From Octopus vulgaris (Eukaryota): 64,000 nucleotides of DNA. A model generated the notes under the pieces. The model was not told the DNA's origin and did no database searches. It saw nothing but the letters and a program-made list of their open reading frames with translations. The stretch is from the NCBI GenBank assembly GCA_951406725.2, contig CATOCA020000001.1, positions 2,790,001 through 2,854,000 on the forward strand. The letters run 5' to 3'. Each line of letters begins with the position of its first letter. Position 1 is the stretch's first letter. Positions 51 to 37,239 of this stretch are shown here, piece after piece. Both the position numbers and the translations under genes were made by a program.

Positions 51-512
51 AAATGTTAGTGAGCAAAAGAGACGACACAGATGGTGCTTGGATTTGACAG
101 GAAATGTCCCACCGACACGCACAGATGCGGGAGAGGACATCCGAGAAGCTTTCCGACTGGAACAGCGATTTCCAGCAGAAGACCCCTGTTGGAAAGGCAG
201 CCATTCTCACAGATGTGTGCGACGCACCGAATTTGTTTCCTCATAACTCCCCGCCAAACGGACATATTTAATTAAATTTTCTGTTAATACGCTTCAGATG
301 GTGATCATTCTGATTATATCGGAATTTGTAGCGAAACAAATTTGTCTGTCGGCGGAAAGATGAGTTTCGTAAAATTCACACGAATTGTCTGTGTTTGCTC
401 AGAACTTTAACAAAAATGGGTTATTTTCTAATGTAATTTTCTGCAAATAAGTTACAGTGTGTGTAAAATGCGATTATATTAGAATTTAATGTGGAAAGAA
501 AATCTAATGAGT

Positions 513-651: not shown

Positions 652-770
652 GATGCATATCACAATTATCCTTGAAATTTCAAGTTTCCTTTTGTCAATA
701 TGTGACCTGTTGTAATATGTATGTGTAATAATCCACCAAATTAATTTTCTCTTATTCATTTCCGATATAA

Positions 771-3700
771 TTTTTCACGCTGAGAGTTGCTGAAGCATGG
801 AACAAACTGCCGGCATCAGTTGTTAGTTGTCGGAGCACTGCATCCTTCAAAACTTTCATGCTTTCTGAGATTCGCCAACACTACACCTGATTTTCTCCCC
901 TCCATACACACGCAAGCATGGAACAAACTGCCGGCATCAGTTGTTAGTTGTCGGAGCACTGCATCCTTCAAAACTTCCATGCTTCCTGAGATTCGCCAAC
1001 ACTACACCTGATTTCCTCCCTCCATACACACGCAAGCATGGAACAAACTGCCGGCATCAGTTGTTAATTGTCTGAGCACTGCATCCTTCAAAACTTCCAT
1101 TCTTCCTGAGATTCACCAACACTACACCTGATTTCCTCCCCTCCATACACACGCAAGCATGGAACAAACTGCCGGCATCAGTTGTTAGTGGTTGCAGCAC
1201 TGCATCCTTCAAAACTTTCATGCTTTCTGAGATTCGCCAACACTACACCTGATTTCCTCCCCTCCATACACACGCAAGCATGGAACAAACAGCCGGCATC
1301 AGTTGTTAGTTGTCGGAGCACTGCATCCTTCAAAACTTCCATGCTTCCTGAGATTCGCCAACACTACACCTGATTTCCTTCCCTCCATACACACGCAAGC
1401 ATGGAACAAACTGCCGGCATCAGTTGTTAGTTGTCGGAGCACTGCATCCTTCAAAACCTTCATGCTTCCTGAGATTCGCCAACACTACACCTGATTTCCT
1501 CCCCTCCATACACACGCAAGCATGGAACAAACTGCCGGCATCAGTTGTTAATTGTCTGAGCCTCGGAGCACTGCATCCTTCAAAACTTCCATGCTTTCTG
1601 AGATTCGCCAACACTACACCTGATTTCCTCCCCTCCATACACACCAAGCATGGAACAAACTGCCGCATCAGCATCAGTTGTTATTGTCGGTTAGCACACT
1701 GCATCCTTCAAAACTTCCATGCTTCCTGAGATTCGCCAACACTACACCTGATTTCTCCCCTCCATACACACCAAGCATGGAACAAACTGCCGGCATCAGT
1801 TGTTATTGTCTGAGCACTGCATCCTTCAAAACTTCCATGCTTCCTGAGATTCGCCAACACTACACCTGATTTCCTCCCCTCCATACACACCAAGCATGGA
1901 ACAAACTGCCGGCATCAGTTGTTAATTGTCTGAGCACTGCATCCTTCAAAACTTCCATGCTTCTGAGATTCCCAACACTACACCTGATTTCCTCCCTCCA
2001 TACACACCAAGCATGGAACAAACTGCCGGATCAGTTGTTAATTGTCTGAGCACTGCATCCTTCAAAACTTCCATGCTTCCTGAGATTCGCCAACACTACA
2101 CCTGATTTCCTCCCCTCCATACACACGCAAGCATGGAACAAACTGCCGGCATCAGTTGTTAATTGTCTGAGCACTGCATCCTTCAAAACTTTCATGCTTT
2201 CTGAGATTCGCCAACACTACACCTGATTTCCTCCCCTCCATACACACGCAAACATGGAACAAACTGCCGGCATCAGTTGTTAGTTGTCGGAGCACTGCAT
2301 CCTTCAAAACTTTCATGCTTTCTGAGATTCGCCAACACTACACCTGATTTTCTCCCCCTCCATACACACGCAAGCATGGAACAAACTGCCGGCATCAGTT
2401 GTTAGATGTCGGAGCACTGCATCCTTCAAAACTTCCATGCTTCCTGAGATTCGCCAACACTACACCTGATTTCCTCCCCTCCATACACACGCAAGCATGG
2501 AACAAACTGCCGGCATCAGTTGTTAATTGTCTGAGCACTGCATCCTTCAAAACTTCCATGCTTTCTGAGATTCGCCAACACTACACCTGATTTCCTCCCC
2601 TCCATACACACGCAAGCATGGAACAAACTGCCGGCATCAGTTGTTAGTGGTTGCAGCACTGCATCCTTCAAAACTTCCATGCTTCCTGAGATTCGCCAAC
2701 ACTACACCTGATTTCCTCCCCTCCATACACACGCAAGCATGGAACAAACTGCCGGCATCAGTTCAAAACTTCCATGCTTCCTGAGATTCGCCAACACTAC
2801 ACCAGATTTCCTCCCCTCCATACACACGCAAGCATGGAACAAACTGCCGGCATCAGTTGTTAATTGTCTGAGCACTGCATCCTTCAAAACTTCCATGCTT
2901 CCTGAGATTCACCAACACTACACCTGATTTCCTCCCCTCCATACACACGCAAGCATGGAACAAACTGCCGGCATCAGTTGTTAATTGTCTGAGCACTGCA
3001 TCCTTCAAAACTTCCATGCTTCCTGAGATTCACCAACACTACACCTGATTTCCTCCCCTCCATACACACGCAAGCATGGAACAAACTGCCGGCATCAGTT
3101 GTTAATTGTCTGAGCACTGCATCCTTCAAAACTTCCATGCTTCCTGAGATTCACCAACACTACACCTGATTTCCTCCCCTCCATACACACGCAAGCATGG
3201 AACAAACTGCCGGCATCAGTTGTTAATTGTCTGAGCACTGCATCCTTCAAAACTTCCATGCTTCCTGAGATTCACCAACACTACACCTGATTTCCTCCCC
3301 TCCATACACACCAAGCATGGAACAAACTGCCGGCATCAGTTGTTAATTGTCTGAGCACTGCATCCTTCAAAACTTCCATGCTTCCTGAGATTCACCAACA
3401 CTACACCTGATTTCCTCCCCTCCATACACACGCAAGCATGGAACAAACTGCCGGCATCAGTTGTTAATTGTCTGAGCACTGCATCCTTCAAAACTTCCAT
3501 TCTTCCTGAGATTCACCAACACTACACCTGATTTCCTCCCCTCCATACACACGCAAGCATGGAACAAACTGCCGGCATCAGTTGTTAATTGTCTGAGCAC
3601 TGCATCCTTCAAAACTTCCATTCTTCCTGAGATTCACCAACACTACACCTGATTTCCTCCCCTCCATACACACGCAAGCATGGAACAAACTGCCGGCATC

Positions 3701-6700
3701 AGTTGTTAGTGGTTGCAGCACTGCATCCTTCAAAACTTCCATGCTTCCTGAGATTCACCAACACTACACCTGATTTCCTCCCCTCCATACACACGCAAGC
3801 ATGGAACAAACTGCCGGCATCAGTTGTTAATTGTCTGAGCACTGCATCCTTCAAAACTTCCATCTTCCTGAGATTCACCAACACTACACCTGATTTCCTC
3901 CCCTCCATACACACGCAAGCATGGAACAAACTGCCGGCATCAGTTGTTAGTTGTCTGAGCACTGCATCCTTCAAAACTTCCATGCTTCCTGAGATTCACC
4001 AACACTACACCTGATTTCCTCCCCTCCATACACACGCAAGCATGGAACAAACTGCCGGCATCAGTTGTTAATTGTCTGAGCACTGCATCCTTCAAAACTT
4101 CCATTCTTCCTGAGATTCACCAACACTACACCTGATTTCCTCCCCTCCATACACACGCAAGCATGGAACAAACTGCCGGCATCAGTTGTTAATTGTCTGA
4201 GCACTGCATCCTTCAAAACTTCCATTCTTCCTGAGATTCGCCAACACTACACCTGATTTCCTCCCCTCCATACACACGCAAGCATGGAACAAACTGCCGG
4301 CATTAGTTGTTAATTGTCTGAGCACTGCATCCTTCAAAACTTCCATTCTTCCTGAGATTCACCAACACTACACCTGATTTCCTCCCCTCCATACACACGC
4401 AAGCATGGAACAAACTGCCGGCATCAGTTGTTAATTGTCTGAGCACTGCATCCTTCAAAACTTCCATTCTTCCTGAGATTCACCAACACTACACCTGATT
4501 TCCTCCCCTCCATACACACGCAAGCATGGAACAAACTGCCGGCATCAGTTGTTAATTGTCTGAGCACTGCATCCTTCAAAACTTCCATTCTTCCTGAGAT
4601 TCACCAACACTACACCTGATTTCCTCCCCTCCATACACACGCAAGCATGGAACAAACTGCCGGCATCAGTTGTTAATTGTCTGAGCACTGCATCCTTCAA
4701 AACTTCCATCTTCCTGAGATTCACCAACACTACACCTGATTTCCTCCCCTCCATACACACGCAAGCATGGAACAAACTGCCGGCATCAGTTGTTAATTGT
4801 CTGAGCACTGCATCCTTCAAAACTTCCATTCTTCCTGAGATTCACCAACACTACACCTGATTTCCTCCCCTCCATACACACGCAAGCATGGAACAAACTG
4901 CCGGCATCAGTTGTTAATTGTCTGAGCACTGCATCCTTCAAAACTTCCATTCTTCCTGAGATTCACCAACACTACACCTGATTTCCTCCCCTCCATACAC
5001 ACTCAAGCATGGAACAAACTGCCGGCATCAGTTGTTAATTGTCTGAGCACTGCATCCTTCAAAACTTCCATCTTCCTGAGATTCACCAACACTACACCTG
5101 ATTTCCTCCCCTCCATACACACGCAAGCATGGAACAAACTGCCGGCATCAGTTGTTAATTGTCTGAGCACTGCATCCTTCAAAACTTCCATTCTTCCTGA
5201 GATTCACCAACACTACACCTGATTTCCTCCCCTCCATACACACGCAAGCATGGAACAAACTGCCGGCATCAGTTGTTAATTGTCTGAGCACTGCATCCTT
5301 CAAAACTTCCATTCTTCCTGAGATTCACCAACACTACACCTGATTTCCTCCCCTCCATACACACGCAAGCATGGAACAAACTGCCGGCATCAGTTGTTAA
5401 TTGTCTGAGCACTGCATCCTTCAAAACTTCCATTCTTCCTGAGATTCACCAACACTACACCTGATTTCCTCCCTCCATACACACGCAAGCATGGAACAAA
5501 CTGCCGGCATCAGTTGTTAATTGTCTGAGCACTGCATCCTTCAAAACTTCCATCTTGAGATTCACCAACACTACACCTGATTTCCTCCCCTCCATACACA
5601 CGCAAGCATGGAACAAACTGCCGGCATCAGTTGTTAATTGTCTGAGCACTGCATCCTTCAAAACTTCCATTCTTCCTGAGATTCACCAACACTACACCTG
5701 ATTTCCTCCCCTCCATACACACGCAAGCATGGAACAAACTGCCGGCATCAGTTGTTAATTGTCTGAGCACTGCATCCTTCAAAACTTCCATTCTTCCTGA
5801 GATTCACCAACACTACACCTGATTTCCTCCCCTCCATACACACGCAAGCATGGAACAAACTGCCGGCATCAGTTGTTAATTGTCTGAGCACTGCATCCTT
5901 CAAAACTTCCATTCTTCCTGAGATTCACCAACACTACACCTGATTTCCTCCCCTCCATACACACGCAAGCATGGAACAAACTGCCGGCATCAGTTGTTAG
6001 TGGTTGCAGCACTGCATCCTTCAAAACTTCCAGCCTTCCTGAGATTCACCAACACTACACCTGATTTCCTCCCCTCCATACACACGCAAGCATGGAACAA
6101 ACTGCCGGCATCAGTTGTTAATTGTCTGAGCACTGCATCCTTCAAAACTTCCATTCTTCCTGAGATTCACCAACACTACACCTGATTTCCTCCCCTCCAT
6201 ACACACTCAAGCATGGAACAAACTGCCGGCATCAGTTGTTAATTGTCTGAGCACTGCATCCTTCAAAACTTCCATGCTTCCTGAGATTCACCAACACTAC
6301 ACCTGATTTCCTCCCCTCCATACACACGCAAGCATGGAACAAACTGCCGGCATCAGTTGTTAATTGTCTGAGCACTGCATCCTTCAAAACTTCCATTCTT
6401 CCTGAGATTCACCAACACTACACCTGATTTCCTCCCCTCCATACACACGCAAGCATGGAACAAACTGCCGGCATCAGTTGTTAATTGTCTGAGCACTGCA
6501 TCCTTCAAAACTTCCATTCTTCCTGAGATTCACCAACACTACACCTGATTTCCTCCCCTCCATACACACGCAAGCATGGAACAAACTGCCGGCATCAGTT
6601 GTTAATTGTCTGAGCACTGCATCCTTCAAAACTTCCATTCTTCCTGAGATTCACCAACACTACACCTGATTTCCTCCCCTCCATACACACGCAAGCATGG

Positions 6701-9700
6701 AACAAACTGCCGGCATCAGTTGTTAATTGTCTGAGCACTGCATCCTTCAAAACTTCCATTCTTCCTGAGATTCACCAACACTACACCTGATTTCCTCCCC
6801 TCCATACACACGCAAGCATGGAACAAACTGCCGGCATCAGTTGTTAATTGTCTGAGCACTGCATCCTTCAAAACTTCCATTCTTCCTGAGATTCACCAAC
6901 ACTACACCTGATTTCCTCCCCTCCATACACACGCAAGCATGGAACAAACTGCCGGCATCAGTTGTTAATTGTCTGAGCACTGCATCCTTCAAAACTTCCA
7001 TTCTTCCTGAGATTCACCAACACTACACCTGATTTCCTCCCCTCCATACACACGCAAGCATGGAACAAACTGCCGGCATCAGTTGTTAATTGTCTGAGCA
7101 CTGCATCCTTCAAAACTTCCATCTTCCTGAGATTCACCAACACTACACCTGATTTCCTCCCCTCCATACACACGCAAGCATGGAACAAACTGCCGGCATC
7201 AGTTGTTAATTGTCTGAGCACTGCATCCTTCAAAACTTCCATTCTTCCTGAGATTCACCAACACTACACCTGATTTCCTCCCCTCCATACACACGCAAGC
7301 ATGGAACAAACTGCCGGCATCAGTTGTTAATTGTCTGAGCACTGCATCCTTCAAAACTTCCATTCTTCCTGAGATTCACCAACACTACACCTGATTTCCT
7401 CCCCTCCATACACACGCAAGCATGGAACAAACTGCCGGCATCAGTTGTTAATTGTCTGAGCACTGCATCCTTCAAAACTTCCATTCTTCCTGAGATTCAC
7501 CAACACTACACCTGATTTCCTCCCCTCCATACACACGCAAGCATGGAACAAACTGCCGGCATCAGTTGTTAATTGTCTGAGCACTGCATCCTTCAAAACT
7601 TCCATTCTTCCTGAGATTCACCAACACTACACCTGATTTCCTCCCCTCCATACACACGCAAGCATGGAACAAACTGCCGGCATCAGTTGTTAATTGTCTG
7701 AGCACTGCATCCTTCAAAACTTCCATTCTTCCTGAGATTCACCAACACTACACCTGATTTCCTCCCCTCCATACACACGCAAGCATGGAACAAACTGCCG
7801 GCATCAGTTGTTAATTGTCTGAGCACTGCATCCTTCAAAACTTCCATTCTTCCTGAGATTCACCAACACTACACCTGATTTCCTCCCCTCCATACACACG
7901 CAAGCATGGAACAAACTGCCGGCATCAGTTGTTAATTGTCTGAGCACTGCATCCTTCAAAACTTCCATTCTTCCTGAGATTCACCAACACTACACCTGAT
8001 TTCCTCCCCTCCATACACACGCAAGCATGGAACAAACTGCCGGCATCAGTTGTTATGTAGCACTGCATCCTTCAAAACTTCATCTTAAGATTCCCAACAC
8101 TACACCTGATTTCCTCCATACACCAAGTCAGTTGTTATGTCAGCACTGCATCCTTCAAAACTTCCATTCTTCCTGAGATTCACCAACACTACACCTGATT
8201 TCTTCCCCTCCATACACACGCAAGCATGGAACAAACTGCCGGCATCAGTTGTTAGTGGTTGCAGCACTGCATCCTTCAAAACTTCCATTCTTCCTGAGAT
8301 TCACCAACACTACACCTGATTTCCTCCCCTCCATACACACGCAAGCATGGAACAAACTGCCGGCATCAGTTGTTAATTGTCTGAGCACTGCATCCTTCAA
8401 AACTTCCATTCTTCCTGAGATTCACCAACACTACACCTGATTTCCTCCCCTCCATACACACTCAAGCATGGAACAAACTGCCGGCATCAGTTGTTAATTG
8501 TCTGAGCACTGCATCCTTCAAAACTTCCATTCTTCCTGAGATTCACCAACACTACACCTGATTTCCTCCCCTCCATACACACGCAAGCATGGAACAAACT
8601 GCCGGCATCAGTTGTTAATTGTCTGAGCACTGCATCCTTCAAAACTTCCATTCTTCCTGAGATTCACCAACACTACACCTGATTTCCTCCCCTCCATACA
8701 CACGCAAGCATGGAACAAACTGCCGGCATCAGTTGTTAATTGTCTGAGCACTGCATCCTTCAAAACTTCCATTCTTCCTGAGATTCACCAACACTACACC
8801 TGATTTCCTCCCCTCCATACACACGCAAGCATGGAACAAACTGCCGGCATCAGTTGTTAATTGTCTGAGCACTGCATCCTTCAAAACTTCCATTCTTCCT
8901 GAGATTCACCAACACTACACCTGATTTCCTCCCCTCCATACACACGCAAGCATGGAACAAACTGCCGGCATCAGTTGTTAATTGTCTGAGCACTGCATCC
9001 TTCAAAACTTCCATTCTTCCTGAGATTCACCAACACTACACCTGATTTCCTCCCCTCCATACACACGCAAGCATGGAACAAACTGCCGGCATCAGTTGTT
9101 AATTGTCTGAGCACTGCATCCTTCAAAACTTCCATTCTTCCTGAGATTCACCAACACTACACCTGATTTCCTCCCCTCCATACACACGCAAGCATGGAAC
9201 AAACTGCCGGCATCAGTTGTTAATTGTCTGAGCACTGCATCCTTCAAAACTTCCATTCTTCCTGAGATTCACCAACACTACACCTGATTTCCTCCCCTCC
9301 ATACACACGCAAGCATGGAACAAACTGCCGGCATCAGTTGTTAATTGTCTGAGCACTGCATCCTTCAAAACTTCCATTCTTCCTGAGATTCACCAACACT
9401 ACACCTGATTTCCTCCCCTCCATACACACGCAAGCATGGAACAAACTGCCGGCATCAGTTGTTAATTGTCTGAGCACTGCATCCTTCAAAACTTCCATTC
9501 TTCCTGAGATTCACCAACACTACACCTGATTTCCTCCCCTCCATACACACGCAAGCATGGAACAAACTGCCGGCATCAGTTGTTAATTGTCTGAGCACTG
9601 CATCCTTCAAAACTTCCATTCTTCCTGAGATTCACCAACACTACACCTGATTTCCTCCCCTCCATACACACGCAAGCATGGAACAAACTGCCGGCATCAG

Positions 9701-12700
9701 TTGTTAATTGTCTGAGCACTGCATCCTTCAAAACTTCCATCTTCCTGAGATTCACCAACACTACACCAGATTTCCACCCCACCATACACACTCAAGCATG
9801 GAACAAACTGCCGGCATCAGTTGTTAATTGTCTGAGCACTGCATCCTTCAAAACTTCCATTCTTCCTGAGATTCACCAACACTACACCTGATTTCCTCCC
9901 CTCCATACACACTCAAGCATGGAACAAACTGCCGGCATCAGTTGTTAATTGTCTGAGCACTGCATCCTTCAAAACTTCCATTCTTCCTGAGATTCACCAA
10001 CACTACACCTGATTTCCTCCCCTCCATACACACTCAAGCATGGAACAAACTGCCGGCATCAGTTGTTAATTGTCTGAGCACTGCATCCTTCAAAACTTCC
10101 ATTCTTCCTGAGATTCACCAACACTACACCTGATTTCCTCCCCTCCATACACACTCAAGCATGGAACAAACTGCCGGCATCAGTTGTTAATTGTCTGAGC
10201 ACTGCATCCTTCAAAACTTCCATTCTTCCTGAGATTCACCAACACTACACCTGATTTCCTCCCCTCCATACACACTCAAGCATGGAACAAACTGCCGGCA
10301 TCAGTTGTTAATTGTCTGAGCACTGCATCCTTCAAAACTTCCATTCTTCCTGAGATTCACCAACACTACACCTGATTTCCTCCCCTCCATACACACTCAA
10401 GCATGGAACAAACTGCCGGCATCAGTTGTTAATTGTCTGAGCACTGCATCCTTCAAAACTTCCATTCTTCCTGAGATTCACCAACACTACACCTGATTTC
10501 CTCCCCTCCATACACACTCAAGCATGGAACAAACTGCCGGCATCAGTTGTTAATTGTCTGAGCACTGCATCCTTCAAAACTTCCATTCTTCCTGAGATTC
10601 ACCAACACTACACCTGATTTCCTCCCCTCCATACACACCAAGCATGGAACAAACTGCCGGCATCAGTTGTTAATTGTCTGAGCACTGCATCCTTCAAAAC
10701 TTCCATTCTTCCTGAGATTCACCAACACTACACCTGATTTCCTCCCCTCCATACACACGCAAGCATGGAACAAACTGCCGGCATCAGTTGTTAATTGTCT
10801 GAGCACTGCATCCTTCAAAACTTCCATTCTTCCTGAGATTCACCAACACTACACCTGATTTCCTCCCCTCCATACACACTCAAGCATGGAACAAACTGCC
10901 GGCATCAGTTGTTAATTGTCTGAGCACTGCATCCTTCAAAACTTCCATTCTTCCTGAGATTCACCAACACTACACCTGATTTCCTCCCCTCCATACACAG
11001 CAAGCATGGAACAAACTGCCGGCATCAGTTGTTAATTGTCTGAGCACTGCATCCTTCAAAACTTCCATCCTTCCTGAGATTCACCAACACTACACCTGAT
11101 TTCCTCCCCTCCATACACACGCAAGCATGGAACAAACTGCCGGCATCAGTTGTTAATTGTCTGAGCACTGCATCCTTCAAAACTTCCATCCTTCCTGAGA
11201 TTCACCAACACTACACCTGATTTCCTCCCTTCATACACACTCAAGCATGGAACAAACTGCCGGCATCAGTTGTTAATTGTCTGAGCACTGCATCCTTCAA
11301 AACTTCCATGCTTCCTGAGATTCACCAACACTACACCTGATTTCCTCCCCTCCATACACACTCAAGCATGGAACAAACTGCCGGCATCAGTTGTTAATTG
11401 TCTGAGCACTGCATCCTTCAAAACTTCCATTCTTCCTGAGATTCACCAACACTACACCTGATTTCCTCCCCTCCATACACACGCAAGCATGGAACAAACT
11501 GCCGGCATCAGTTGTTAATTGTCTGAGCACTGCATCCTTCAAAACTTCCATTCTTCCTGAGATTCACCAACACTACACCTGATTTCCTCCCCTCCATACA
11601 CACTCAAGCATGGAACAAACTGCCGGCATCAGTTGTTAATTGTCTGAGCACTGCATCCTTCAAAACTTCCATTCTTCCTGAGATTCACCAACACTACACC
11701 TGATTTCCTCCCCTCCATACACACGCAAGCATGGAACAAACTGCCGGCATCAGTTGTTAATTGTCTGAGCACTGCATCCTTCAAAACTTCCATTCTTCCT
11801 GAGATTCACCAACACTACACCTGATTTCCTCCCCTCCATACACACTCAAGCATGGAACAAACTGCCGGCATCAGTTGTTAATTGTCTGAGCACTGCATCC
11901 TTCAAAACTTCCATTCTTCCTGAGATTCACCAACACTACACCTGATTTCCTCCCCTCCATACACACCAAGCATGGAACAAACTGCCGGCATCAGTTGTTA
12001 ATTGTCTGAGCACTGCATCCTTCAAAACTTCCATTCTTCCTGAGATTCACCAACACTACACCTGATTTCCTCCCCTCCATACACACGCAAGCATGGAACA
12101 AACTGCCGGCATCAGTTGTTAATTGTCTGAGCACTGCATCCTTCAAAACTTCCATTCTTCCTGAGATTCACCAACACTACACCTGATTTCCTCCCCTCCA
12201 TACACACTCAAGCATGGAACAAACTGCCGGCATCAGTTGTTAATTGTCTGAGCACTGCATCCTTCAAAACTTCCATTCTTCCTGAGATTCACCAACACTA
12301 CACCTGATTTCCTCCCCTCCATACACACGCAAGCATGGAACAAACTGCCGGCATCAGTTGTTAATTGTCTGAGCACTGCATCCTTCAAAACTTCCATTCT
12401 TCCTGAGATTCACCAACACTACACCTGATTTCCTCCCCTCCATACACACGCAAGCATGGAACAAACTGCCGGCATCAGTTGTTAATTGTCTGAGCACTGC
12501 ATCCTTCAAAACTTCCATTCTTCCTGAGATTCACCAACACTACACCTGATTTCCTCCCCTCCATACACACTCAAGCATGGAACAAACTGCCGGCATCAGT
12601 TGTTAATTGTCTGAGCACTGCATCCTTCAAAACTTCCATTCTTCCTGAGATTCACCAACACTACACCTGATTTCCTCCCCTCCATACACACTCAAGCATG

Positions 12701-21700: not shown

Positions 21701-24700
21701 AAACTTCCATTCTTCCTGAGATTCACCAACACTACACCTGATTTCCTCCCCTCCATACACACTCAAGCATGGAACAAACTGCCGGCATCAGTTGTTAATT
21801 GTCTGAGCACTGCATCCTTCAAAACTTCCATTCTTCCTGAGATTCACCAACACTACACCTGATTTCCTCCCCTCCATACACACTCAAGCATGGAACAAAC
21901 TGCCGGCATCAGTTGTTAATTGTCTGAGCACTGCATCCTTCAAAACTTCCATTCTTCCTGAGATTCACCAACACTACACCTGATTTCCTCCCCTCCATAC
22001 ACACGCAAGCATGGAACAAACTGCCGGCATCAGTTGTTAATTGTCTGAGCACTGCATCCTTCAAAACTTCCATTCTTCCTGAGATTCACCAACACTACAC
22101 CTGATTTCCTCCCCTCCATACACACTCAAGCATGGAACAAACTGCCGGCATCAGTTGTTAATTGTCTGAGCACTGCATCCTTCAAAACTTCCATTCTTCC
22201 TGAGATTCACCAACACTACACCTGATTTCCTCCCCTCCATACACACTCAAGCATGGAACAAACTGCCGGCATCAGTTGTTAATTGTCTGAGCACTGCATC
22301 CTTCAAAACTTCCATTCTTCCTGAGATTCACCAACACTACACCTGATTTCCTCCCCTCCATACACACGCAAGCATGGAACAAACTGCCGGCATCAGTTGT
22401 TAATTGTCTGAGCACTGCATCCTTCAAAACTTCCATTCTTCCTGAGATTCACCAACACTACACCTGATTTCCTCCCCTCCATACACACTCAAGCATGGAA
22501 CAAACTGCCGGCATCAGTTGTTAATTGTCTGAGCACTGCATCCTTCAAAACTTCCATTCTTCCTGAGATTCACCAACACTACACCTGATTTCCTCCCCTC
22601 CATACACACTCAAGCATGGAACAAACTGCCGGCATCAGTTGTTAATTGTCTGAGCACTGCATCCTTCAAAACTTCCATTCTTCCTGAGATTCACCAACAC
22701 TACACCTGATTTCCTCCCCTCCATACACACTCAAGCATGGAACAAACTGCCGGCATCAGTTGTTAATTGTCTGAGCACTGCATCCTTCAAAACTTCCATT
22801 CTTCCTGAGATTCACCAACACTACACCTGATTTCCTCCCCTCCATACACACCAAGCATGGAACAAACTGCCGGCATCAGTTGTTAATTGTCTGAGCACTG
22901 CATCCTTCAAAACTTCCATTCTTCCTGAGATTCACCAACACTACACCTGATTTCCTCCCCTCCATACACACTCAAGCATGGAACAAACTGCCGGCATCAG
23001 TTGTTAATTGTCTGAGCACTGCATCCTTCAAAACTTCCATCCTTCCTGAGATTCACCAACACTACACCTGATTTCCTCCTTTCCATACACACGCAAGCAT
23101 GGAACAAACTGCCTGCATCAGTTGTTAATTGTCTGAGCACTGCATCCTTCAAAACTTCCATTCTTCCTGAGATTCACCAACACTACACCTGATTTCCTCC
23201 CCTCCATACACACTCAAGCATGGAACAAACTGCCGGCATCAGTTGTTAATTGTCTGAGCACTGCATCCTTCAAAACTTCCATTCTTCCTGAGATTCACCA
23301 ACACTACACCTGATTTCCTCCCCTCCATACACACTCAAGCATGGAACAAACTGCCGGCATCAGTTGTTAATTGTCTGAGCACTGCATCCTTCAAAACTTC
23401 CATTCTTCCTGAGATTCACCAACACTACACCTGATTTCCTCCCCTCCATACACACTCAAGCATGGAACAAACTGCCGGCATCAGTTGTTAATTGTCTGAG
23501 CACTGCATCCTTCAAAACTTCCATTCTTCCTGAGATTCACCAACACTACACCTGATTTCCTCCCCTCCATACACACTCAAGCATGGAACAAACTGCCGGC
23601 ATCAGTTGTTAATTGTCTGAGCACTGCATCCTTCAAAACTTCCATTCTTCCTGAGATTCACCAACACTACACCTGATTTCCTCCCCTCCATACACACTCA
23701 AGCATGGAACAAACTGCCGGCATCAGTTGTTAATTGTCTGAGCACTGCATCCTTCAAAACTTCCATTCTTCCTGAGATTCACCAACACTACACCTGATTT
23801 CCTCCCCTCCATACACACTCAAGCATGGAACAAACTGCCGGCATCAGTTGTTAATTGTCTGAGCACTGCATCCTTCAAAACTTCCATTCTTCCTGAGATT
23901 CACCAACACTACACCTGATTTCCTCCCCTCCATACACACTCAAGCATGGAACAAACTGCCGGCATCAGTTGTTAATTGTCTGAGCACTGCATCCTTCAAA
24001 ACTTCCATTCTTCCTGAGATTCACCAACACTACACCTGATTTCCTCCCCTCCATACACACGCAAGCATGGAACAAACTGCCGGCATCAGTTGTTAATTGT
24101 CTGAGCACTGCATCCTTCAAAACTTCCATTCTTCCTGAGATTCACCAACACTACACCTGATTTCCTCCCCTCCATACACACTCAAGCATGGAACAAACTG
24201 CCGGCATCAGTTGTTAATTGTCTGAGCACTGCATCCTTCAAAACTTCCATTCTTCCTGAGATTCACCAACACTACACCTGATTTCCTCCCCTCCATACAC
24301 ACTCAAGCATGGAACAAACTGCCGGCATCAGTTGTTAATTGTCTGAGCACTGCATCCTTCAAAACTTCCATTCTTCCTGAGATTCACCAACACTACACCT
24401 GATTTCCTCCCCTCCATACACACGCAAGCATGGAACAAACTGCCGGCATCAGTTGTTAATTGTCTGAGCACTGCATCCTTCAAAACTTCCATTCTTCCTG
24501 AGATTCACCAACACTACACCTGATTTCCTCCCCTCCATACACACTCAAGCATGGAACAAACTGCCGGCATCAGTTGTTAATTGTCTGAGCACTGCATCCT
24601 TCAAAACTTCCATTCTTCCTGAGATTCACCAACACTACACCTGATTTCCTCCCCTCCATACACACTCAAGCATGGAACAAACTGCCGGCATCAGTTGTTA

Positions 24701-27700
24701 ATTGTCTGAGCACTGCATCCTTCAAAACTTCCATTCTTCCTGAGATTCACCAACACTACACCTGATTTCCTCCCCTCCATACACACGCAAGCATGGAACA
24801 AACTGCCGGCATCAGTTGTTAATTGTCTGAGCACTGCATCCTTCAAAACTTCCATTCTTCCTGAGATTCACCAACACTACACCTGATTTCCTCCCCTCCA
24901 TACACACTCAAGCATGGAACAAACTGCCGGCATCAGTTGTTAATTGTCTGAGCACTGCATCCTTCAAAACTTCCATTCTTCCTGAGATTCACCAACACTA
25001 CACCTGATTTCCTCCCCTCCATACACACTCAAGCATGGAACAAACTGCCGGCATCAGTTGTTAATTGTCTGAGCACTGCATCCTTCAAAACTTCCATTCT
25101 TCCTGAGATTCACCAACACTACACCTGATTTCCTCCCCTCCATACACACGCAAGCATGGAACAAACTGCCGGCATCAGTTGTTAATTGTCTGAGCACTGC
25201 ATCCTTCAAAACTTCCATTCTTCCTGAGATTCACCAACACTACACCTGATTTCCTCCCCTCCATACACACTCAAGCATGGAACAAACTGCCGGCATCAGT
25301 TGTTAATTGTCTGAGCACTGCATCCTTCAAAACTTCCATTCTTCCTGAGATTCACCAACACTACACCTGATTTCCTCCCCTCCATACACACTCAAGCATG
25401 GAACAAACTGCCGGCATCAGTTGTTAATTGTCTGAGCACTGCATCCTTCAAAACTTCCATTCTTCCTGAGATTCACCAACACTACACCTGATTTCCTCCC
25501 CTCCATACACACGCAAGCATGGAACAAACTGCCGGCATCAGTTGTTAATTGTCTGAGCACTGCATCCTTCAAAACTTCCATTCTTCCTGAGATTCACCAA
25601 CACTACACCTGATTTCCTCCCCTCCATACACACTCAAGCATGGAACAAACTGCCGGCATCAGTTGTTAATTGTCTGAGCACTGCATCCTTCAAAACTTCC
25701 ATTCTTCCTGAGATTCACCAACACTACACCTGATTTCCTCCCCTCCATACACACTCAAGCATGGAACAAACTGCCGGCATCAGTTGTTAATTGTCTGAGC
25801 ACTGCATCCTTCAAAACTTCCATTCTTCCTGAGATTCACCAACACTACACCTGATTTCCTCCCCTCCATACACACTCAAGCATGGAACAAACTGCCGGCA
25901 TCAGTTGTTAATTGTCTGAGCACTGCATCCTTCAAAACTTCCATTCTTCCTGAGATTCACCAACACTACACCTGATTTCCTCCCCTCCATACACACTCAA
26001 GCATGGAACAAACTGCCGGCATCAGTTGTTAATTGTCTGAGCACTGCATCCTTCAAAACTTCCATTCTTCCTGAGATTCACCAACACTACACCTGATTTC
26101 CTCCCCTCCATACACACGCAGCAAACATGGAACAAACTGCCGGCATCAGTTGTTAATTGTCTGAGCACTGCATCCTTCAAAACTTCCATCTTCCTGAGAT
26201 TCACCAACACTACACCTGATTTCCTCCCCTCCATACACACGCAAGCATGGAACAAACTGCCGGCATCAGTTGTTAATTGTCTGAGCACTGCATCCTTCAA
26301 AACTTCCATTCTTCCTGAGATTCACCAACACTACACCTGATTTCCTCCCCTCCATACACACGCAAGCATGGAACAAACTGCCGGCATCAGTTGTTAATTG
26401 TCTGAGCACTGCATCCTTCAAAACTTCCATGCTTTCTGAGATTCGCCAACACTACACCTGATATCCTCCCCTCCATACACACACAGCAAACATGGAACAA
26501 ACTGCCGGCATCAGTTGTTAATTGTCTGAGCACTGCATCCTTCAAAACTTCCATGCTTCCTGAGATTCACCAACACTACACCTGATTTCCTCCCCTCCAT
26601 ACACACGCAAGCATGGAACAAACTGCCGGCATCAGTTGTTAATTGTCTGAGCACTGCATCCTTCAAAACTTCCATCCTTCCTGAGATTCACCAACACTAC
26701 ACCTGATTTCCTCCCCTCCATACACACGCAGCAAACATGGAACAAACTGCCGGCATCAGTTGTTAATTGTCTGAGCACTGCATCCTTCAAAACTTCCATT
26801 CTTCCTGAGATTCACCAACACTACACCTGATTTCCTCCCCTCCATACACACGCAAGCATGGAACAAACTGCCGGCATCAGTTGTTAATTGTCTGAGCACT
26901 GCATCCTTCAAAACTTCCATTCTTCCTGAGATTCACCAACACTACACCTGATTTCCTCCCCTCCATACACACACAGCAAGCATGGAACAAACTGCCGGCA
27001 TCAGTTGTTAATTGTCTGAGCACTGCATCCTTCAAAACTTCCATTCTTCCTGAGATTCACCAACACTACACCTGATTTCCTCCCCTCCATACACACGCAA
27101 GCATGGAACAAACTGCCGGCATCAGTTGTTAATTGTCTGAGCACTGCATCCTTCAAAACTTCCATTCTTCCTGAGATTCACCAACACTACACCTGATTTC
27201 CTCCCCTCCATACACACGCAGGAAACATGGAACAAACTGCCGGCATCAGTTGTTAATTGTCTGAGCACTGCATCCTTCAAAACTTCCATTCTTCCTGAGA
27301 TTCACCAACACTACACCTGATTTCCTCCCCTCCATACACACGCAAGCATGGAACAAACTGCCGGCATCAGTTGTTAATTGTCTGAGCACTGCATCCTTCA
27401 AAACTTCCATTCTTTCTGAGATTCACCAACACTACACCTGATTTCCTCCCCTCCATACACACGCAAGCATGGAACAAACTGCCGGCATCAGTTGTTAATT
27501 GTCTGAGCACTGCATCCTTCAAAACTTCCATTCTTCCTGAGATTCACCAACACTACACCTGATTTCCTCCCCTCCATACACACCAAGCATGGAACAAACT
27601 GCCGGCATCAGTTGTTAATTGTCTGAGCACTGCATCCTTCAAAACTTCCATTCTTCCTGAGATTCACCAACACTACACCTGATTTCCTCCCCTCCATACA

Positions 27701-30700
27701 CACTCAAGCATGGAACAAACTGCCGGCATCAGTTGTTAATTGTCTGAGCACTGCATCCTTCAAAACTTCCATTCTTCCTGAGATTCACCAACACTACACC
27801 TGATTTCCTCCCCTCCATACACACGCAAGCATGGAACAAACTGCCGGCATCAGTTGTTAATTGTCTGAGCACTGCATCCTTCAAAACTTCCATTCTTCCT
27901 GAGATTCACCAACACTACACCTGATTTCCTCCCCTCCATACACACCAAGCATGGAACAAACTGCCGGCATCAGTTGTTAATTGTCTGAGCACTGCATCCT
28001 TCAAAACTTCCATGCTTCCTGAGATTCGCCAACACTACACCTGATTTCCTCCCCTCCATACACACGCAAACATGGAACAAACTGCCGGCATCAGTTGTTA
28101 ATTGTCTGAGCACTGCATCCTTCAAAACTTCCATGCTTCCTGAGATTCGCCAACACTACACCTGATTTCCTCCCCTCCATACACACGCAAGCATGGAACA
28201 AACTGCCGGCATCAGTTGTTAATTGTCTGAGCACTGCATCCTTCAAAACTTCCATTCTTCCTGAGATTCACCAACACTACACCTGATTTCCTCCCCTCCA
28301 TACACACTCAAGCATGGAACAAACTGCCGGCATCAGTTGTTAATTGTCTGAGCACTGCATCCTTCAAAACTTCCATGCTTCCTGAGATTCACCAACACTA
28401 CACCTGATTTCCTCCCCTCCATACACACGCAGCAAACATGGAACAAACTGCCGGCATCAGTTGTTAATTGTCTGAGCACTGCATCCTTCAAAACTTCCAT
28501 GCTTCCTGAGATTCACCAACACTACACCTGATTTCCTCCCCTCCATACACACGCAAGCATGGAACAAACTGCCGGCATCAGTTGTTAATTGTCTGAGCAC
28601 TGCATCCTTCAAAACTTCCATCTTCCTGAGATTCACCAACACTACACCTGATTTCCTCCCCTCCATACACACGCAAGCATGGAACAAACTGCCGGCATCA
28701 GTTGTTAATTGTCTGAGCACTGCATCCTTCAAAACTTCCATTCTTCCTGAGATTCACCAACACTACACCTGATTTCCTCCCCTCCATACACACTCAAGCA
28801 TGGAACAAACTGCCGGCATCAGTTGTTAATTGTCTGAGCACTGCATCCTTCAAAACTTCCATTCTTCCTGAGATTCACCAACACTACACCTGATTTCCTC
28901 CCCTCCATACACACGCAAGCATGGAACAAACTGCCGGCATCAGTTGTTAATTGTCTGAGCACTGCATCCTTCAAAACTTCCATTCTTCCTGAGATTCACC
29001 AACACTACACCTGATTTCCTCCCCTCCATACACACGCAAGCATGGAACAAACTGCCGGCATCAGTTGTTAATTGTCTGAGCACTGCATCCTTCAAAACTT
29101 CCATTCTTCCTGAGATTCACCAACACTACACCTGATTTCCTCCCCTCCATACACACGCAAGCATGGAACAAACTGCCGGCATCAGTTGTTAATTGTCTGA
29201 GCACTGCATCCTTCAAAACTTCCATGCTTCCTGAGATTCACCAACACTACACCTGATTTCCTCCCCTCCATACACACGCAAGCAAACATGGAACAAACTG
29301 CCGGCATCAGTTGTTAATTGTCTGAGCACTGCATCCTTCAAAACTTCCATGCTTCCTGAGATTCACCAACACTACACCTGATTTCCTCCCCTCCATACAC
29401 ACTCAAGCATGGAACAAACTGCCGGCATCAGTTGTTAATTGTCTGAGCACTGCATCCTTCAAAACTTCCATGCTTCCTGAGATTCACCAACACTACACCT
29501 GATTTCCTCCCCTCCATACACACTCAAACATGGAACAAACTGCCGGCATCAGTTGTTAATTGTCTGAGCACTGCATCCTTCAAAACTTCCATTCTTCCTG
29601 AGATTCACCAACACTACACCTGATTTCCTCCCCTCCATACACACACGCAAACATGGAACAAACTGCCGGCATCAGTTGTTAATTGTCTGAGCACTGCATC
29701 CTTCAAAACTTCCATGCTTCCTGAGATTAGCCAACATTACACCTGATTTCCTCCCCTCCATACACACGCAAGCATGGAACAAACTGCCGGCATCAGTTGT
29801 TAATTGTCTGAGCACTGCATCCTTCAAAACTTCCATTCTTCCTGAGATTCGCCAACACTACACCTGATTTCCTCCCCTCCATACACACGCAAGCATGGAA
29901 CAAACTGCCGGCATCAGTTGTTAATTGTCTGAGCACTGCATCCTTCAAAACTTCCATGCTTCCTGAGATTCGCCAACACTACACCTGATTTCCTCCCCTC
30001 CATACACACGCAGCAAACATGGAACAAACTGCCGGCATCAGTTGTTAATTGTCTGAGCACTGCATCCTTCAAAACTTCCATGCTTCCTGAGATTAGCCAA
30101 CACTACACCTGATTTCCTCCCCTCCATACACACGCAGCAAACATGGAACAAACTGCCGGCATCAGTTGTTAATTGTCTGAGCACTGCATCCTTCAAAACT
30201 TCCATGCTTCCTGAGATTCACCAACACTACACCTGATTTCCTCCCCTCCATACACACGCAAGCATGGAACAAACTGCCGGCATCAGTTGTTAATTGTCTG
30301 AGCACTGCATCCTTCAAAACTTCCATTCTTCCTGAGATTCACCAACACTACACCTGATTACCTCCCCTCCATACACACGCAGCAAACATGGAACAAACTG
30401 CCGGCATCAGTTGTTAATTGTCTGAGCACTGCATCCTTCAAAACTTCCATGCTTCCTGAGATTCGCCAACACTACACCTGATTTCCTCCCCTCCATACAC
30501 ACGCAGCAAACATGGAACAAACTGCCGGCATCAGTTGTTAATTGTCTGAGCACTGCATCCTTCAAAACTTCCATGCTTCCTGAGATTCACCAACACTACA
30601 CCTGATTTCCTCTCCTCCATACACACGCAAGCATGGAACAAACTGCCGGCATCAGTTGTTAATTGTCTGAGCACTGCATCCTTCAAAACTTCCATGCTTC

Positions 30701-32578
30701 CTGAGATTCACCAACACTACACCTGATTTCCTCCCCTCCATACACACGCAAGCATGGAACAAACTGCCGGCATCAGTTGTTAATTGTCTGAGCACTGCAT
30801 CCTTCAAAACTTCCATGCTTCCTGAGATTCACCAACACTACACCTGATTTCCTCCCCTCCATACACACGCAAGCATGGAACAAACTGCCGGCATCAGTTG
30901 TTAATTGTCTGAGCACTGCATCCTTCAAAACTTCCATTCTTCCTGAGATTCACCAACACTACACCTGATTTCCTCCCCTCCATACACACCAAGCATGGAA
31001 CAAACTGCCGGCATCAGTTGTTAATTGTCTGAGCACTGCATCCTTCAAAACTTCCATGCTTCCTGAGATTCACCAACACTACACCTGATTTCCTCCCCTC
31101 CATACACACGCAAGCATGGAACAAACTGCCGGCATCAGTTGTTAATTGTCTGAGCACTGCATCCTTCAAAACTTCCATGCTTCCTGAGATTCGCCAACAC
31201 TACACCTGATTTCCTCCCCTCCATACACACGCAAGCATGGAACAAACTGCCGGCATCAGTTGTTAATTGTCTGAGCACTGCATCCTTCAAAACTTCCATG
31301 CTTCCTGAGATTCACCAACACTACACCTGATTTCCTCCCCTCCATACACACGCAAGCATGGAACAAACTGCCGGCATCAGTTGTTAATTGTCTGAGCACT
31401 GCATCCTTCAAAACTTCCATGCTTCCTGAGATTCGCCAACACTACACCTGATTTCCTCCCCTCCATACACACTCAAGCATGGAACAAACTGCCGGCATCA
31501 GTTGTTAATTGTCTGAGCACTGCATCCTTCAAAACTTCCATGCTTCCTGAGATTCGCCAACACTACACCTGATTTCCTCCCCTCCATACACACACAAGCA
31601 TGGAACAAACTGCCGGCATCAGTTGTTAGTGGTTGCAGCACTGCATCCTTCAAAACTTCCATGCTTCCTGAGATTCGCCAACACTACACCTGATTTCCTC
31701 CCCTCCATACACACACAAGCATGGAACAAACTGCCGGCATCAGTTGTTAATTGTCTGAGCACTGCATCCTTCAAAACTTCCATGCTTCCTGAGATTCGCC
31801 AACACTACACCTGATTTCCTCCCCTCCATACACACCAAGCATGGAACAAACTGCCGGCATCAGTTGTTAATTGTCTGAGCACTGCATCCTTCAAAACTTC
31901 CATGCTTCCTGAGATTCGCCAACACTACACCTGATTTCCTCCCCTCCATACACACGCAAGCATGGAACAAACTGCCGGCATCAGTTGTTAATTGTCTGAG
32001 CACTGCATCCTTCAAAACTTCCATGCTTCCTGAGATTCGCCAACACTACACCTGATTTCCTCCCCTCCATACACACGCAAGCATGGAACAAACTGCCGGC
32101 ATCAGTTGTTAATTGTCTGAGCACTGCATCCTTCAAAACTTCCATGCTTCCTGAGATTCGCCAACACTACACCTGATTTCCTCCCCTCCATACACACGCA
32201 AGCATGGAACAAACTGCCGGCATCAGTTGTTAATTGTCTGAGCACTGCATCCTTCAAAACTTCCATGCTTTCTGAGATTCGCCAACACTACACTTGATTT
32301 CCTCCCCTCCATACACACACAAGCATGGAACAAACTGCCGGCATCAGTTGTTAGTTGTCTGAGCACTGCATCCTTCAAAACTTCAATGCTTTCTGAGATT
32401 CGCCAACACTACACCTGATTTCCTCCCCTCCATACACACGCAAGCATGTATCTGACTCATACATTGTTCGCTTTCCATACATTTGTACATTACTGCATAC
32501 ACCTTATACGCACTTTCTGACAAGTTGTGGTGCACCTGAGCACTGTATACAATAATTTCATTATTTTTATTATTATTT
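771..32578 (+). mobile_element. 5'-truncated CR1/L2-type non-LTR retrotransposon 3' end (~280 bp if collapsed) whose internal 121-bp segment is tandemly amplified
   Basis: 771-890 translates FFTLRVAEAWNKLPASVVSCRSTASFKTFMLSEIRQHYT*, matching the CR1/L2 ORF2 C-terminal pattern FFxxRVxxxWNxLPxxVVxxxSxxxFK. After the array come a unique 3'UTR (32442-32560) and a TTA-rich tail. Candidate TSD TATAATT at 766-772 and 32579-32585. Confidence 0.85.
793..32441 (+). repeat. 121-bp tandem satellite array, ~260 copies (~31.6 kb)
   Basis: Unit aagcatggaacaaactgccggcatcagttgttaattgtctgagcactgcatccttcaaaacttccattcttcctgagattcaccaacactacacctgatttcctcccctccatacacac(g/t)c counted at 121 nt; 31649/121 is about 261. 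Confidence 0.98.
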
Positions 32579-32585
32579 TATAATT

Positions 32586-33200
32586 CTAATCGACACACTC
32601 TGAAAGGCATTTATAGAAAAGTCCATTAAAAATTTACTATTTTTCTGAAAGTTGTGAAGAAAGCCAGACGCCTTGTGTGAATTTTCTAAAACTCCTCACA
32701 TCGAAGAAGGAAAAATGTTTTCATCAAATATTCCGATATAATCGCAATTTACAGCATGAGAAGCTCAGTTTTAGAAAATATAATTTAAAATCTCCATTTT
32801 CTGGAAGCTCTGAGGCAGGAAATTCGGGTGTCAAACATCTGAAGCAATACCGAAAGGCATTTAATATCTTCACACTGAACTCCTTCATAACCGTCGAGAT
32901 GCGTCAATTTCCGTCGATTTCCGTTCTCGTAGCTGTTTCCCGCAACACAGCTCCGTCACACATCCATGAGACCGGCCTGCGATGAGTAAAAACAGTGTGT
33001 CGAGATGTTTCGGTGGTAGAGGCGTCGTCACTATGAGCTGAATTGTTCTCCGTTAGATGGCATTCACTTGTTTCCTGTTCTATTCTCATCACTTCCGGTC
33101 TGATCCCTTTCCTTCTCGAAGTTTACTTTCACATTTTTGCAGCTTAAAATAGGACGACAACCAGTGCACGGCTGCACTAAACTGCACTTTCATTGCATAT
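32586..33200 (-). promoter_or_regulatory. CpG-containing unique segment; putative promoter/first non-coding exon on the minus strand
   Basis: CpG-rich relative to surroundings; ETS-type CCGGAAGTG on minus at 33090-33098; joins 53-772 across the candidate TSD; recalled resemblance to 5' leaders of Octopus C2H2 zinc-finger genes (unverified). Confidence 0.35.
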
Positions 33201-34079
33201 TCTTGCTCCCTTCGCTTTGTAGTGGACAGTCAATGGCTAATCTTTGCAGTTATCTGACCAAATGCCAATTATAAAATAGAAACTATTAGATTGAGGGAAA
33301 TGTCCGTGCGTCGTGTTAAAATAATGATTGTTTTATGCAAGAATTTATTCAAAAGCAACAAATATTCTTCAAAATAAAGACCAAACGCACGAACTTTTTC
33401 CTCAACTTAATAAATAAATTTTGAAGCAATTAAAGAAATAAGAGGTTTCATTTAGTATGCGATGTTTGGCTGCTATTTCTAGCAGCTGCCTCCACAATAG
33501 GTGCAGGGTGCAGTGTGAAGATTACGAGGAGGAAATTAAGGGCTAAGAATTGCAATATTAAACCCTTCGATCTATTATTTACATTAAATCATTTTTGGAA
33601 ATCTTCAAATTCTGCGCAAGAAAAAAATAGAATTTAAAGCGAAAAGGGATTCAATAAGAGTTATTGTTCTTACCCTTTCAACGTTGACTCCTCCCACCAC
33701 TTTGCATAATGTAGACTGACTCCGCCCATTTTGCATTCTTTATGAACTCATACCCTTCCCCTATTACTAAATATATATCGTCCAATAAGCGCGCTCTCCC
33801 TCTTTGTCTCTTTCTCTTCGCCTCCCTCTCCCACCTCCTCATATATTACCCAATGCTTCCCCCTCCCTTGCTTTTACTCTTAATTCCCTCTGTCTGTACC
33901 TCACTAAACCCTTAATGCATTTTCATACTCTTTCTCCCTCCCCTACAAAACATATCCTCCCACTTCTCCCTCTTTGTCTCCTTTCTCTCAGAACCTCATT
34001 ATATATTCATTTTAATCACCGCCCACCTCCCTTGGAAAAGCGTTCACCTCTTCCTCTCCCTCACTAACTGTATATCTGT

Positions 34080-34971: not shown

Positions 34972-35003
<32 letters not shown>

Positions 35004-35610: not shown

Positions 35611-35642
<32 letters not shown>

Positions 35643-35770
35643 ACGCATTCTGTCTCTCTCTCTCTCTCTCACTCTCATTCTTTCTCTGCTTCCTCATACA
35701 TTAATATATCCCTCCCCTTCCCTAGGGTTTCTCTCTCTCACTCTTTCTTCCTTTCTTTCTCTCTCTATCT
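34080..35770. repeat. CT-rich minisatellite, ~105-140-bp unit, ~13 copies
   Basis: Anchor ctgcttcctcatacattaatatatccctccccttccctagg recurs about 13 times, separated by variable (CT)n tracts. Confidence 0.92.
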
Positions 35771-37085: not shown

Positions 37086-37239
37086 ACTATACTTTACATC
37101 ATTTTTATGAAGGTCACTTTAAGGAGCTTCTAAGGAAATATAGTCCAGTTGGGGATCAAATGTGATGCTAGAAATAACAGCCAAGTATGTTAAAGTTTGG
37201 TTTTGTGTTTCATATGAAAATGAAGGACACTTCGAAACT

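What the first reader, a model, noticed from the sequence alone, without database searches (positions are those of the whole stretch)
766..32585. Birth of a 31.6-kb satellite from one short LINE insertion via a 7-bp microhomology
Seen: the first unit is preceded by upstream LINE codons (FFTLRVAE) and the last unit continues into a single-copy 3'UTR with a TTA-rich tail. The junction word AAGCATG occurs both in ORF2 (gctgAAGCATGgaac, 793-799) and in the 3'UTR (cacgcAAGCATGtatc, 32442-32448), exactly one unit apart. TATAATT flanks both sides. Inference: a ~280-bp 5'-truncated CR1/L2-type insertion gained an internal duplication at this microhomology (RT template slippage, circle intermediate or unequal exchange) and expanded about 260-fold in place, with both founder ends still intact. 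Each unit carries the ORF2 stop codon. If transcribed, the array would yield many copies of LINE 3'-end sequence (possible small-RNA source or decoy), which is speculative.
Basis: partly seen in the sequence, partly recalled or inferred. Interest (0 to 1): 0.85.

Follow-up and report, generated by a model that had tools for sequence, protein, structure and literature searches.

The report
Octopus satellite inside a retrotransposon fragment
In an octopus genome, a 121-base piece of a short retrotransposon insertion has been copied head to tail about 260 times while both ends of the insertion stayed intact, which makes it an unusually complete example of a known way in which satellite DNA begins.

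Summary
About 262 units of 121 bp (793-32441) lie between a 5'-truncated CR1-type ORF2 end and a single-copy 3'UTR with a TTA tail. AAGCATG marks both breakpoints and TATAATT flanks both ends. The peptide matches an Octopus vulgaris protein (28/28 aa) and an RT-bearing ORF2. Contigs of two public runs show dispersed LINE copies entering at AAGCATG from ORF2, matching 771-792 at 21/22 letters. An inverted paralogue of the host repeat fits an empty site with one TSD (modest support). Edge units carry LINE alleles and central units derived ones (rho -0.70). Raw reads of one run hold the head-to-tail junction.

Limits: the array length is unverified, since 30 of 38 deleted bases fall on polymorphic sites, a sign of mixed consensus. 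The right flank looks like a block of about 20-35 copies, so a single-locus birth is not shown. The decoy or small-RNA idea has no support. The mechanism (duplication between 5-10 bp repeats) and CR1-derived satellites are both published. Verdict: a new, unusually complete member of a known kind.

The parts
210..508 (-). Old inverted paralogue (about 69% identical) of the host repeat into which the LINE inserted; serves as an internal model of the empty site
740..765 (+). Left host flank; with the TSD it completes the host motif TTCCGATATAAT (760-771), also found inverted at 313-324 and direct near 32731-32742
766..772 (+). Left target-site duplication TATAATT; bases 771-772 shared with the LINE 5' end
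771..792 (+). Single-copy 5'-truncated ORF2 remnant (FFTLRVAE codons)
   Evidence: (21/22 match to loose ends of dispersed copies)
793..799 (+). ORF2 copy of the 7-bp direct repeat AAGCATG (5' breakpoint)
793..913 (+). Unit 1, founder-like: 6 of 6 LINE-type alleles; 98 nt of ORF2 including the stop (888-890) plus 23 nt of 3'UTR
793..32441 (+). Tandem array of about 262 units of 121 bp
9794..25998 (+). Homogeneous core (units 75-208): 118 of 134 units identical apart from position 120; derived alleles
25999..30628 (+). Local subfamily of units with a 2-4 bp longer junction followed by a 3G>A unit (scattered over units 209-246)
32321..32441 (+). Last unit, partly founder-like (117/121 identical to unit 1)
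32442..32448 (+). 3'UTR copy of AAGCATG (3' breakpoint); start of a weak predicted hairpin (z -1.6)
32449..32559 (+). Single-copy LINE 3'UTR, abundant as dispersed copies in public contigs
32560..32578 (+). TTA/TAT-type microsatellite tail
32579..32585 (+). Right target-site duplication TATAATT
32586..33780 (+). Right host flank; behaves as a near-identical multi-copy block (roughly 20-35 copies, inferred) in contigs of two runs; extent beyond 33780 not tested
   Evidence: tables 2, 5, 8

Best explanation
This is a satellite array born inside a dead-on-arrival CR1-type LINE fragment in an Octopus genome. Step 1 (shown by anatomy and homology): a 280-bp 5'-truncated 3' end inserted into an older host repeat and made a 7-bp TSD. 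Step 2 (junction shown, process inferred): the 121 bp between two chance AAGCATG words was duplicated once, most likely after insertion by slipped-strand replication or repair, or unequal exchange between the 7-mers (the Haber-Louis route). Step 3 (gradient shown, process inferred): repeated unequal exchange and conversion, centred on the middle, expanded it to hundreds of units. New alleles swept outward in nested layers (positions 34/40/102, then 82 and 68, then 120) and the ends stayed near the founder state. It most likely has no function of its own. The true length is uncertain.
For: Peptide 100% identical over 28 aa to an O. vulgaris protein and 72% over 39 aa to the C-terminus of an RVT_1-bearing ORF2. 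Loose ends before 32321 in 73 (X4) and 59 (X11) contigs continue into ORF2, match 771-792 at 21/22 letters and stop matching exactly at 770. The empty site with one TSD aligns across the junction to the inverted paralogue without a gap there: 22/45 matches against 17/45 with two TSDs and 10/45 with none. The host motif spacing is 158 against 160, and the 12-nt motif at 760-771 is identical to the paralogue at 313-324. Majority alleles of dispersed copies (table 3) are those of unit 1. LINE-type alleles fall from 3.25 of 6 (units 1-20) to 0.2 (centre) and rise to 2.2 (units 241-260), rho -0.70. X23 raw reads carry the head-to-tail junction with array-derived alleles: 14 reads cover 32319, and 5 reads run through the junction stretch and return to it. 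Mechanism and end-to-centre pattern are published (PMC6947457, PMC3389668, PMC5411766).
Against: Length unverified: 30 of 38 deleted bases lie at or one base left of 7 polymorphic sites (p 1.5e-21), and the two alleles at position 120 are randomly ordered in the core (runs z 1.4). Both suggest a consensus of mixed haplotypes or misplaced reads, so part of the homogeneous core may be artefact. The raw runs X22 and X23 gave only 50 and 26 laid reads, none on the flank beyond its first few bases, and far fewer unit reads than a 260-unit array predicts; they also lack the abundant dispersed LINE, so they cannot size the array. The empty-site extension left of the TSD is only marginally the best of 29 registers (8/12 against 7/12; 13/26 tied). 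No true empty allele was seen. The flank appears multi-copy, so founder ends may exist at many loci.
Confidence: 0.72

Rival explanations
1. The origin is as described, but the 31.6-kb array is an assembly product. Either a collapsed larger array, or the left end of one copy of a multi-copy host block joined through shared units to the right end of another.
For: Consensus-conflict deletions at polymorphic sites; random order of position-120 alleles in the core; indel-rich units 7-11 and 61; multi-copy right flank; X23 holds mainly an 88-bp derivative unit absent from the window, which points to more array elsewhere.
Against: The smooth, two-sided, site-specific allele gradient over several kb and the local junction subfamily in units 209-246 are hard to get from a simple collapse. 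A complex multi-base variant occurs on both sides (units 4, 16, 25, 44, 62 and 255). This rival concerns length and locus, not origin.
Confidence: 0.35
2. The first duplication arose during insertion: reverse transcriptase slipped back from the ORF2 AAGCATG to the 3'UTR AAGCATG on the RNA, re-copied 121 nt and fell off 22 nt later.
For: The 5' truncation is only 22 nt from the 5' breakpoint. The UTR copy of the word starts a predicted hairpin (z -1.6). Other rearranged LINE ends that re-enter at 32321 exist at low depth in X4 (table 5c), though with other junctions.
Against: The hairpin is not significant (16 of 200 shuffles fold as well). Post-insertion duplication between 5-20 bp repeats, mostly 7 bp, is documented for 300 human TE-derived repeats (PMC3389668). 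Sequence alone cannot separate the two routes.
Confidence: 0.2
3. The tandem units belong to the mobile sequence itself: a LINE subfamily or the multi-copy host block already carried the repeat and delivered it here.
For: The right flank is near-identical and high-depth in X4 and X11; one X4 contig at that same depth (928) reaches 12 nt into the tail beyond the TSD, which suggests that many block copies carry the insertion (under the tool's 31-letter bridging rule, so weak).
Against: The commonest loose end before the unit in both runs is ORF2, so typical LINE copies have one unit. The TSD brackets only the LINE fragment. The left flank was not tested for copy number.
Confidence: 0.2
4. The array is kept because it makes LINE 3'-end RNA that acts as a small-RNA source or a decoy for the CR1 machinery.
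For: Only the anatomy: many sense copies of ORF2-end sequence ending in an intact 3' tail.
Against: Units lack the last 137 nt with the tail; unit and 3' end fold no better than shuffles (z 0.45, 0.77, 0.90); no Rfam match in 32200-64000; all six frames of the commonest unit are closed.
Confidence: 0.05

Closest known systems
TE-derived minisatellites initiated between short direct repeats (Haber and Louis 1998 model; human survey by Ahmed and Liang, PMC3389668; review PMC6947457)
   Same: A unit bounded by a 7-bp direct repeat inside a retrotransposon copy, with TE sequence continuing on both sides. The survey counts 300 such human cases, most with 7-bp repeats.
   Different: Unit of 121 bp and about 260 copies (31.6 kb), satellite scale; TSD and tail still readable. 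The review doubts that this route explains satellites with larger units. I did not see copy numbers for the 300 human cases.
Chicken HinfI (SCR1) and Cen satellites derived from CR1; cetacean common satellite from the L1 3' end (as listed in PMC9659126 and PMC6947457)
   Same: Satellite monomer made of a LINE 3' region; HinfI holds CR1 3'UTR plus partial ORF2.
   Different: As summarised in the reviews, those are known by monomer similarity; I saw no mention of an intact founding insertion, but did not read the primary papers. Here the monomer is wholly LINE-internal and the founder ends remain. Different lineage.
Drosophila Rsp array structure (PMC5411766)
   Same: Homogeneous centre and variant-rich ends, attributed to unequal exchange and conversion.
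   Different: Here the ancestral state is known from the dispersed LINE, so the gradient has a direction: ends ancestral, centre derived.
Octopus vulgaris CR1 LINEs (13 recently active families, 787 insertions; PMC13282606)
   Same: Same genus and likely the source clade.
   Different: I could not assign the family, and the paper's main text has no word beginning with 'satellite'; its supplement was listed but not read.

Membership tests
5'-truncated LINE (non-LTR) insertion | Sequence is the 3' end of an RT-encoding ORF2 plus 3'UTR | tested here: met
   P0001 matches residues 372-410 of P0012 (28/39), which has RVT_1 at E 7.7e-32
5'-truncated LINE (non-LTR) insertion | Dispersed copies with more 5' sequence exist | tested here: met
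   Loose ends in 73 and 59 contigs continue upstream; proteins P0002-P0005 extend N-terminally
5'-truncated LINE (non-LTR) insertion | Simple-repeat 3' tail and target-site duplication | tested here: met
   Tail 32560-32578; TATAATT at both ends; paralogue register favours one copy in the empty state, modestly
5'-truncated LINE (non-LTR) insertion | Empty allele observed in another individual or species | tested here: inconclusive
   No empty-site loose end among the rows shown (344 rows hidden); raw runs did not cover the flank
CR1 clade (against L2 or others) | RT phylogeny places ORF2 in CR1 | not tested
   No tree built. Similarity only: P0012 matches a stork protein at E 4e-21 over the post-RT region; that bird LINEs of this form are CR1 is recalled, not from a call
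Haber-Louis type TE-derived tandem repeat | Array bounded by a 5-10 bp direct repeat one unit apart in the founder | tested here: met
   AAGCATG at offsets 22 and 143 of the 280-bp collapsed element, exact for 7 bp only
Haber-Louis type TE-derived tandem repeat | First duplication by DNA slippage or unequal exchange, not by reverse transcription | not testable with these tools
   Needs single-unit copies of the same insertion
Satellite DNA array under concerted evolution | Long head-to-tail array of units over 100 bp, homogenised in the centre | tested here: met
   as assembled
Satellite DNA array under concerted evolution | Array length confirmed by spanning reads or depth | tested here: inconclusive
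   Junction real in X23 reads; depth uninformative; consensus-conflict signal
Centromeric or heterochromatic satellite | CENP-A binding or cytological location | not testable with these tools
   No genome or chromatin data held

The most novel reading that the evidence does not exclude
The locus is the preserved founder of a multi-locus Octopus satellite family. One LINE fragment inserted into a block now present in roughly 20-35 copies and the duplication was carried with the block. Separate copies then expanded to different lengths and variants (121 bp here, an 88-bp derivative in another individual). That would give replicate satellite births from one known ancestor with readable layers of allele sweeps, a direct test of how and how fast a two-copy duplication becomes a satellite.
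Probability: 0.25. Interest if true: 0.68.

Novelty: new member of a known kind. Interest (0 to 1): 0.42.

Why it matters
Satellite origins are usually inferred from monomer similarity after the founding locus has been erased. Here the insertion ends, the TSD, the breakpoint repeat and the ancestral alleles are all readable, so the order of mutations and the direction of homogenisation can be followed. It suggests that the short-direct-repeat route, which one review limits to minisatellites, can reach tens of kilobases with a 121-bp unit. It is a clean teaching and test case, not a new mechanism or function, and its value depends on long-read confirmation.

Tried and rejected
No whole genome is held, so no genome-wide search for other arrays or a LINE consensus was possible. 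Idea that the 3'UTR is an old diverged copy of the unit, making the 7-mer part of longer homeology: rejected. Global scores were reached by 152-254 of 2000 shuffles, and by 646-898 with the 7-mer fixed; local scores by 34-49 of 2000, weak. Structured-RNA idea: not supported; no Rfam match in 32200-64000 and no tRNA in the window. Higher-order periodicity in the core: none clear (one of 12 lags just outside the band). Other copies of this LINE end in the window: none. The window's second LINE at 44233-44763 gave no alignment to the peptide. Pfam gave 0 families for the 39-aa peptide. The unit pattern had 0 matches in metagenome contigs. No RNA holder listed on record; this says nothing on expression, and no RNA run was laid. 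Raw-read depth for copy number failed: X22 and X23 had depth in 6 and 4 of 30 bins, and most X22 reads were unrelated TTA-rich matches to the tail. I laid 4 of 24 listed runs. Earlier scan findings: three look-ups, nothing. Literature searches for this Octopus satellite listed no paper describing it; the library lacks most subscription papers.
Full report
Observation. The array runs from 793 to 32448. An anchor search finds 261 units; one of 199 bp is two degenerate units, so about 262. 217 of 260 spacings are 121 bp, there are 71 distinct sequences, and two sequences that differ only at position 120 make up 164 of 261. Upstream of unit 1 are 22 nt in frame with it (FFTLRVAE...). Downstream of the last unit are AAGCATG, about 110 nt of single-copy sequence, a TTA-type tail and TATAATT, which also stands at 766-772. 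Collapsed to one unit the element is 280 bp, with AAGCATG at offsets 22 and 143. The match is exactly 7 bp, with mismatches on both sides. The stop codon is at the expected place in 246 of 261 units.

What the sequence is. The 39-aa peptide found 10 proteins at E up to 0.001 among 1.84 billion representatives. One, named Octopus vulgaris by its source, is identical over 28 aa and continues upstream. A cluster member of another hit, P0012, has an RVT_1 domain (E 7.7e-32) and ends in the same peptide at 28/39 identity. Three weaker hits are bird-like LINE proteins, two of them named from a stork, and P0012 aligns to one at E 4e-21. So this is the 3' end of a LINE ORF2 in an Octopus genome. CR1 is the likely clade, by similarity and recall; I built no tree. 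CR1 is recently active in O. vulgaris (PMC13282606, first third of the text and searched passages read).

Dispersed copies. I laid 4 of 24 listed runs on 32280-33780. In contigs of X4 (organism B) and X11 (organism D), 73 and 59 contigs have loose ends just before the unit start. Their consensus matches window 771-792 at 21 of 22 letters and differs at 770. Ordinary LINE copies therefore enter the unit from ORF2, and the 5' truncation is at 771, sharing two bases with the TSD. Unit and UTR are both very deep in these runs, far above the flank; the tool warns that such depth is not a copy number.

Empty site. No empty allele was seen. An internal check exists: 210-508 is an inverted, 69% identical paralogue of the host sequence. 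With the insertion and one TSD removed, the flanks align to it without a gap at the junction: 22/45 matches, against 17/45 with two TSDs and 10/45 with none; local scores 204, 197, 195. The host repeat has a motif recurring at about 160 bp, and the left flank supplies it in full (12/12 identical to 313-324) at spacing 158 against 160 in the paralogue (read from the alignment). Taken alone, the bases left of the TSD are only marginally best among 29 registers, so this support is real but modest.

Direction of change. Majority alleles in the dispersed copies (table 3; positions 34 and 68 inferred from no alternative being listed, with 24 rows hidden) are those of unit 1, which has 6 of 6. The mean falls from 3.25 in units 1-20 to 0.2-0.3 in units 101-200 and rises to 2.2 in units 241-260 (rho -0.70; neighbouring units are not independent, so the p-value is not quoted). 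The layers are nested: 34/40/102 change first, then 82 and 68, then 120. Homogeneous centres with variant ends are the published signature of unequal exchange (PMC5411766, passages read).

Is the array real? The junction is. X23 raw reads cover it (14 reads at 32319; 5 reads return to the same stretch within 150 nt) and carry array-derived alleles. Most are an 88-bp derivative lacking unit positions 37-69, which is not in the window. In X4 and X11 the distance-to-end values at 32319 (30 and 33) imply at least one contig crossing the junction in each; that is my reading of the column. The length is not confirmed. 30 of 38 deleted bases in units fall at or beside 7 polymorphic sites (p 1.5e-21), and position-120 alleles are randomly ordered in the core. 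Both are expected if reads from two haplotypes or from different units were piled into one consensus. X22 and X23 show almost no dispersed LINE and no flank, which I cannot explain, so their depth cannot size the array.

The flank is not unique. Over 32586-33780, long contigs nearly identical to the window have depth 431-928 in X4 and 194-283 in X11. Contigs that look like single loci have about 17-62 and 4-20 (tables 5, 5c, 8). The ratio suggests roughly 20-35 copies; this is an inference. One X4 contig at depth 928 reaches 12 nt into the tail, too short to count as bridging, but hinting that many block copies hold the insertion. The left flank was not tested. No RNA gene was found to explain the block.

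Mechanism. Shown: insertion anatomy, breakpoint on a 7-bp repeat, a single unit in typical dispersed copies, ancestral ends and derived centre. Inferred: the first duplication by DNA slippage or unequal exchange after insertion (preferred), or by RT slip-back during insertion (0.2; the truncation is only 22 nt away); then expansion by unequal exchange. Function: probably none. Units lack the tail and fold no better than shuffles.

Comparison. Duplication between 5-10 bp repeats is the Haber-Louis model, and 300 human TE-derived repeats fit it, mostly with 7-bp repeats (PMC3389668 and PMC6947457, passages read). Satellites from CR1 3'UTR plus ORF2 (chicken HinfI) and from the L1 3' end (cetaceans) are listed in PMC9659126 (passages read); I saw the primary papers only as citations. 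Four searches listed no description of this Octopus array. The supplement of PMC13282606 was listed, not read, and might bear on whether the repeat is already in a library.

Verdict. A real LINE-derived tandem repeat with an unusually complete birth record; known mechanism; length and single-locus history unverified. New member of a known kind, interest 0.42.

Noticed in passing
window 32586-33780: Flank behaves as a homogeneous block of roughly 20-35 copies in contigs of two runs; identity and extent unknown (large mobile element or segmental repeat).
   Followed up: partly
run X23 on window 32280-32448: An 88-bp derivative unit (positions 37-69 missing) with array-derived alleles dominates the few reads; it is absent from the window.
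   Followed up: partly
window 210-508 against 740-772 and 32586-32841: Old inverted repeat (about 69%) with an internal period of about 160 bp around a CA microsatellite (513-649); foldback-like.
   Followed up: partly
window 33284-33412: Short element with 28-nt inverted arms and a depth spike of more than tenfold in X4; possibly a MITE.
   Followed up: no
window 34079-35773: TC-rich tandem repeat of 105-135 bp units, about 13 copies.
   Followed up: no
window 36034-37088: A second satellite-like array, 171-bp unit, 6.2 copies, with diverged partial copies on both sides.
   Followed up: no
window 44230-48984 (minus strand): Another LINE (RVT_1 at E 2.5e-6) broken into pieces by long TA microsatellites, the longest about 1.7 kb (46046-47713).
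   Followed up: partly
window 62989-63525 (minus strand): ORF with a PHD-finger match at the Pfam cut-off (24.4 bits), probably part of another LINE.
   Followed up: no
window 53844-53995 and 54223-54374: 152-bp inverted repeat at 94% identity, about 230 bp apart; probable MITE.
   Followed up: no
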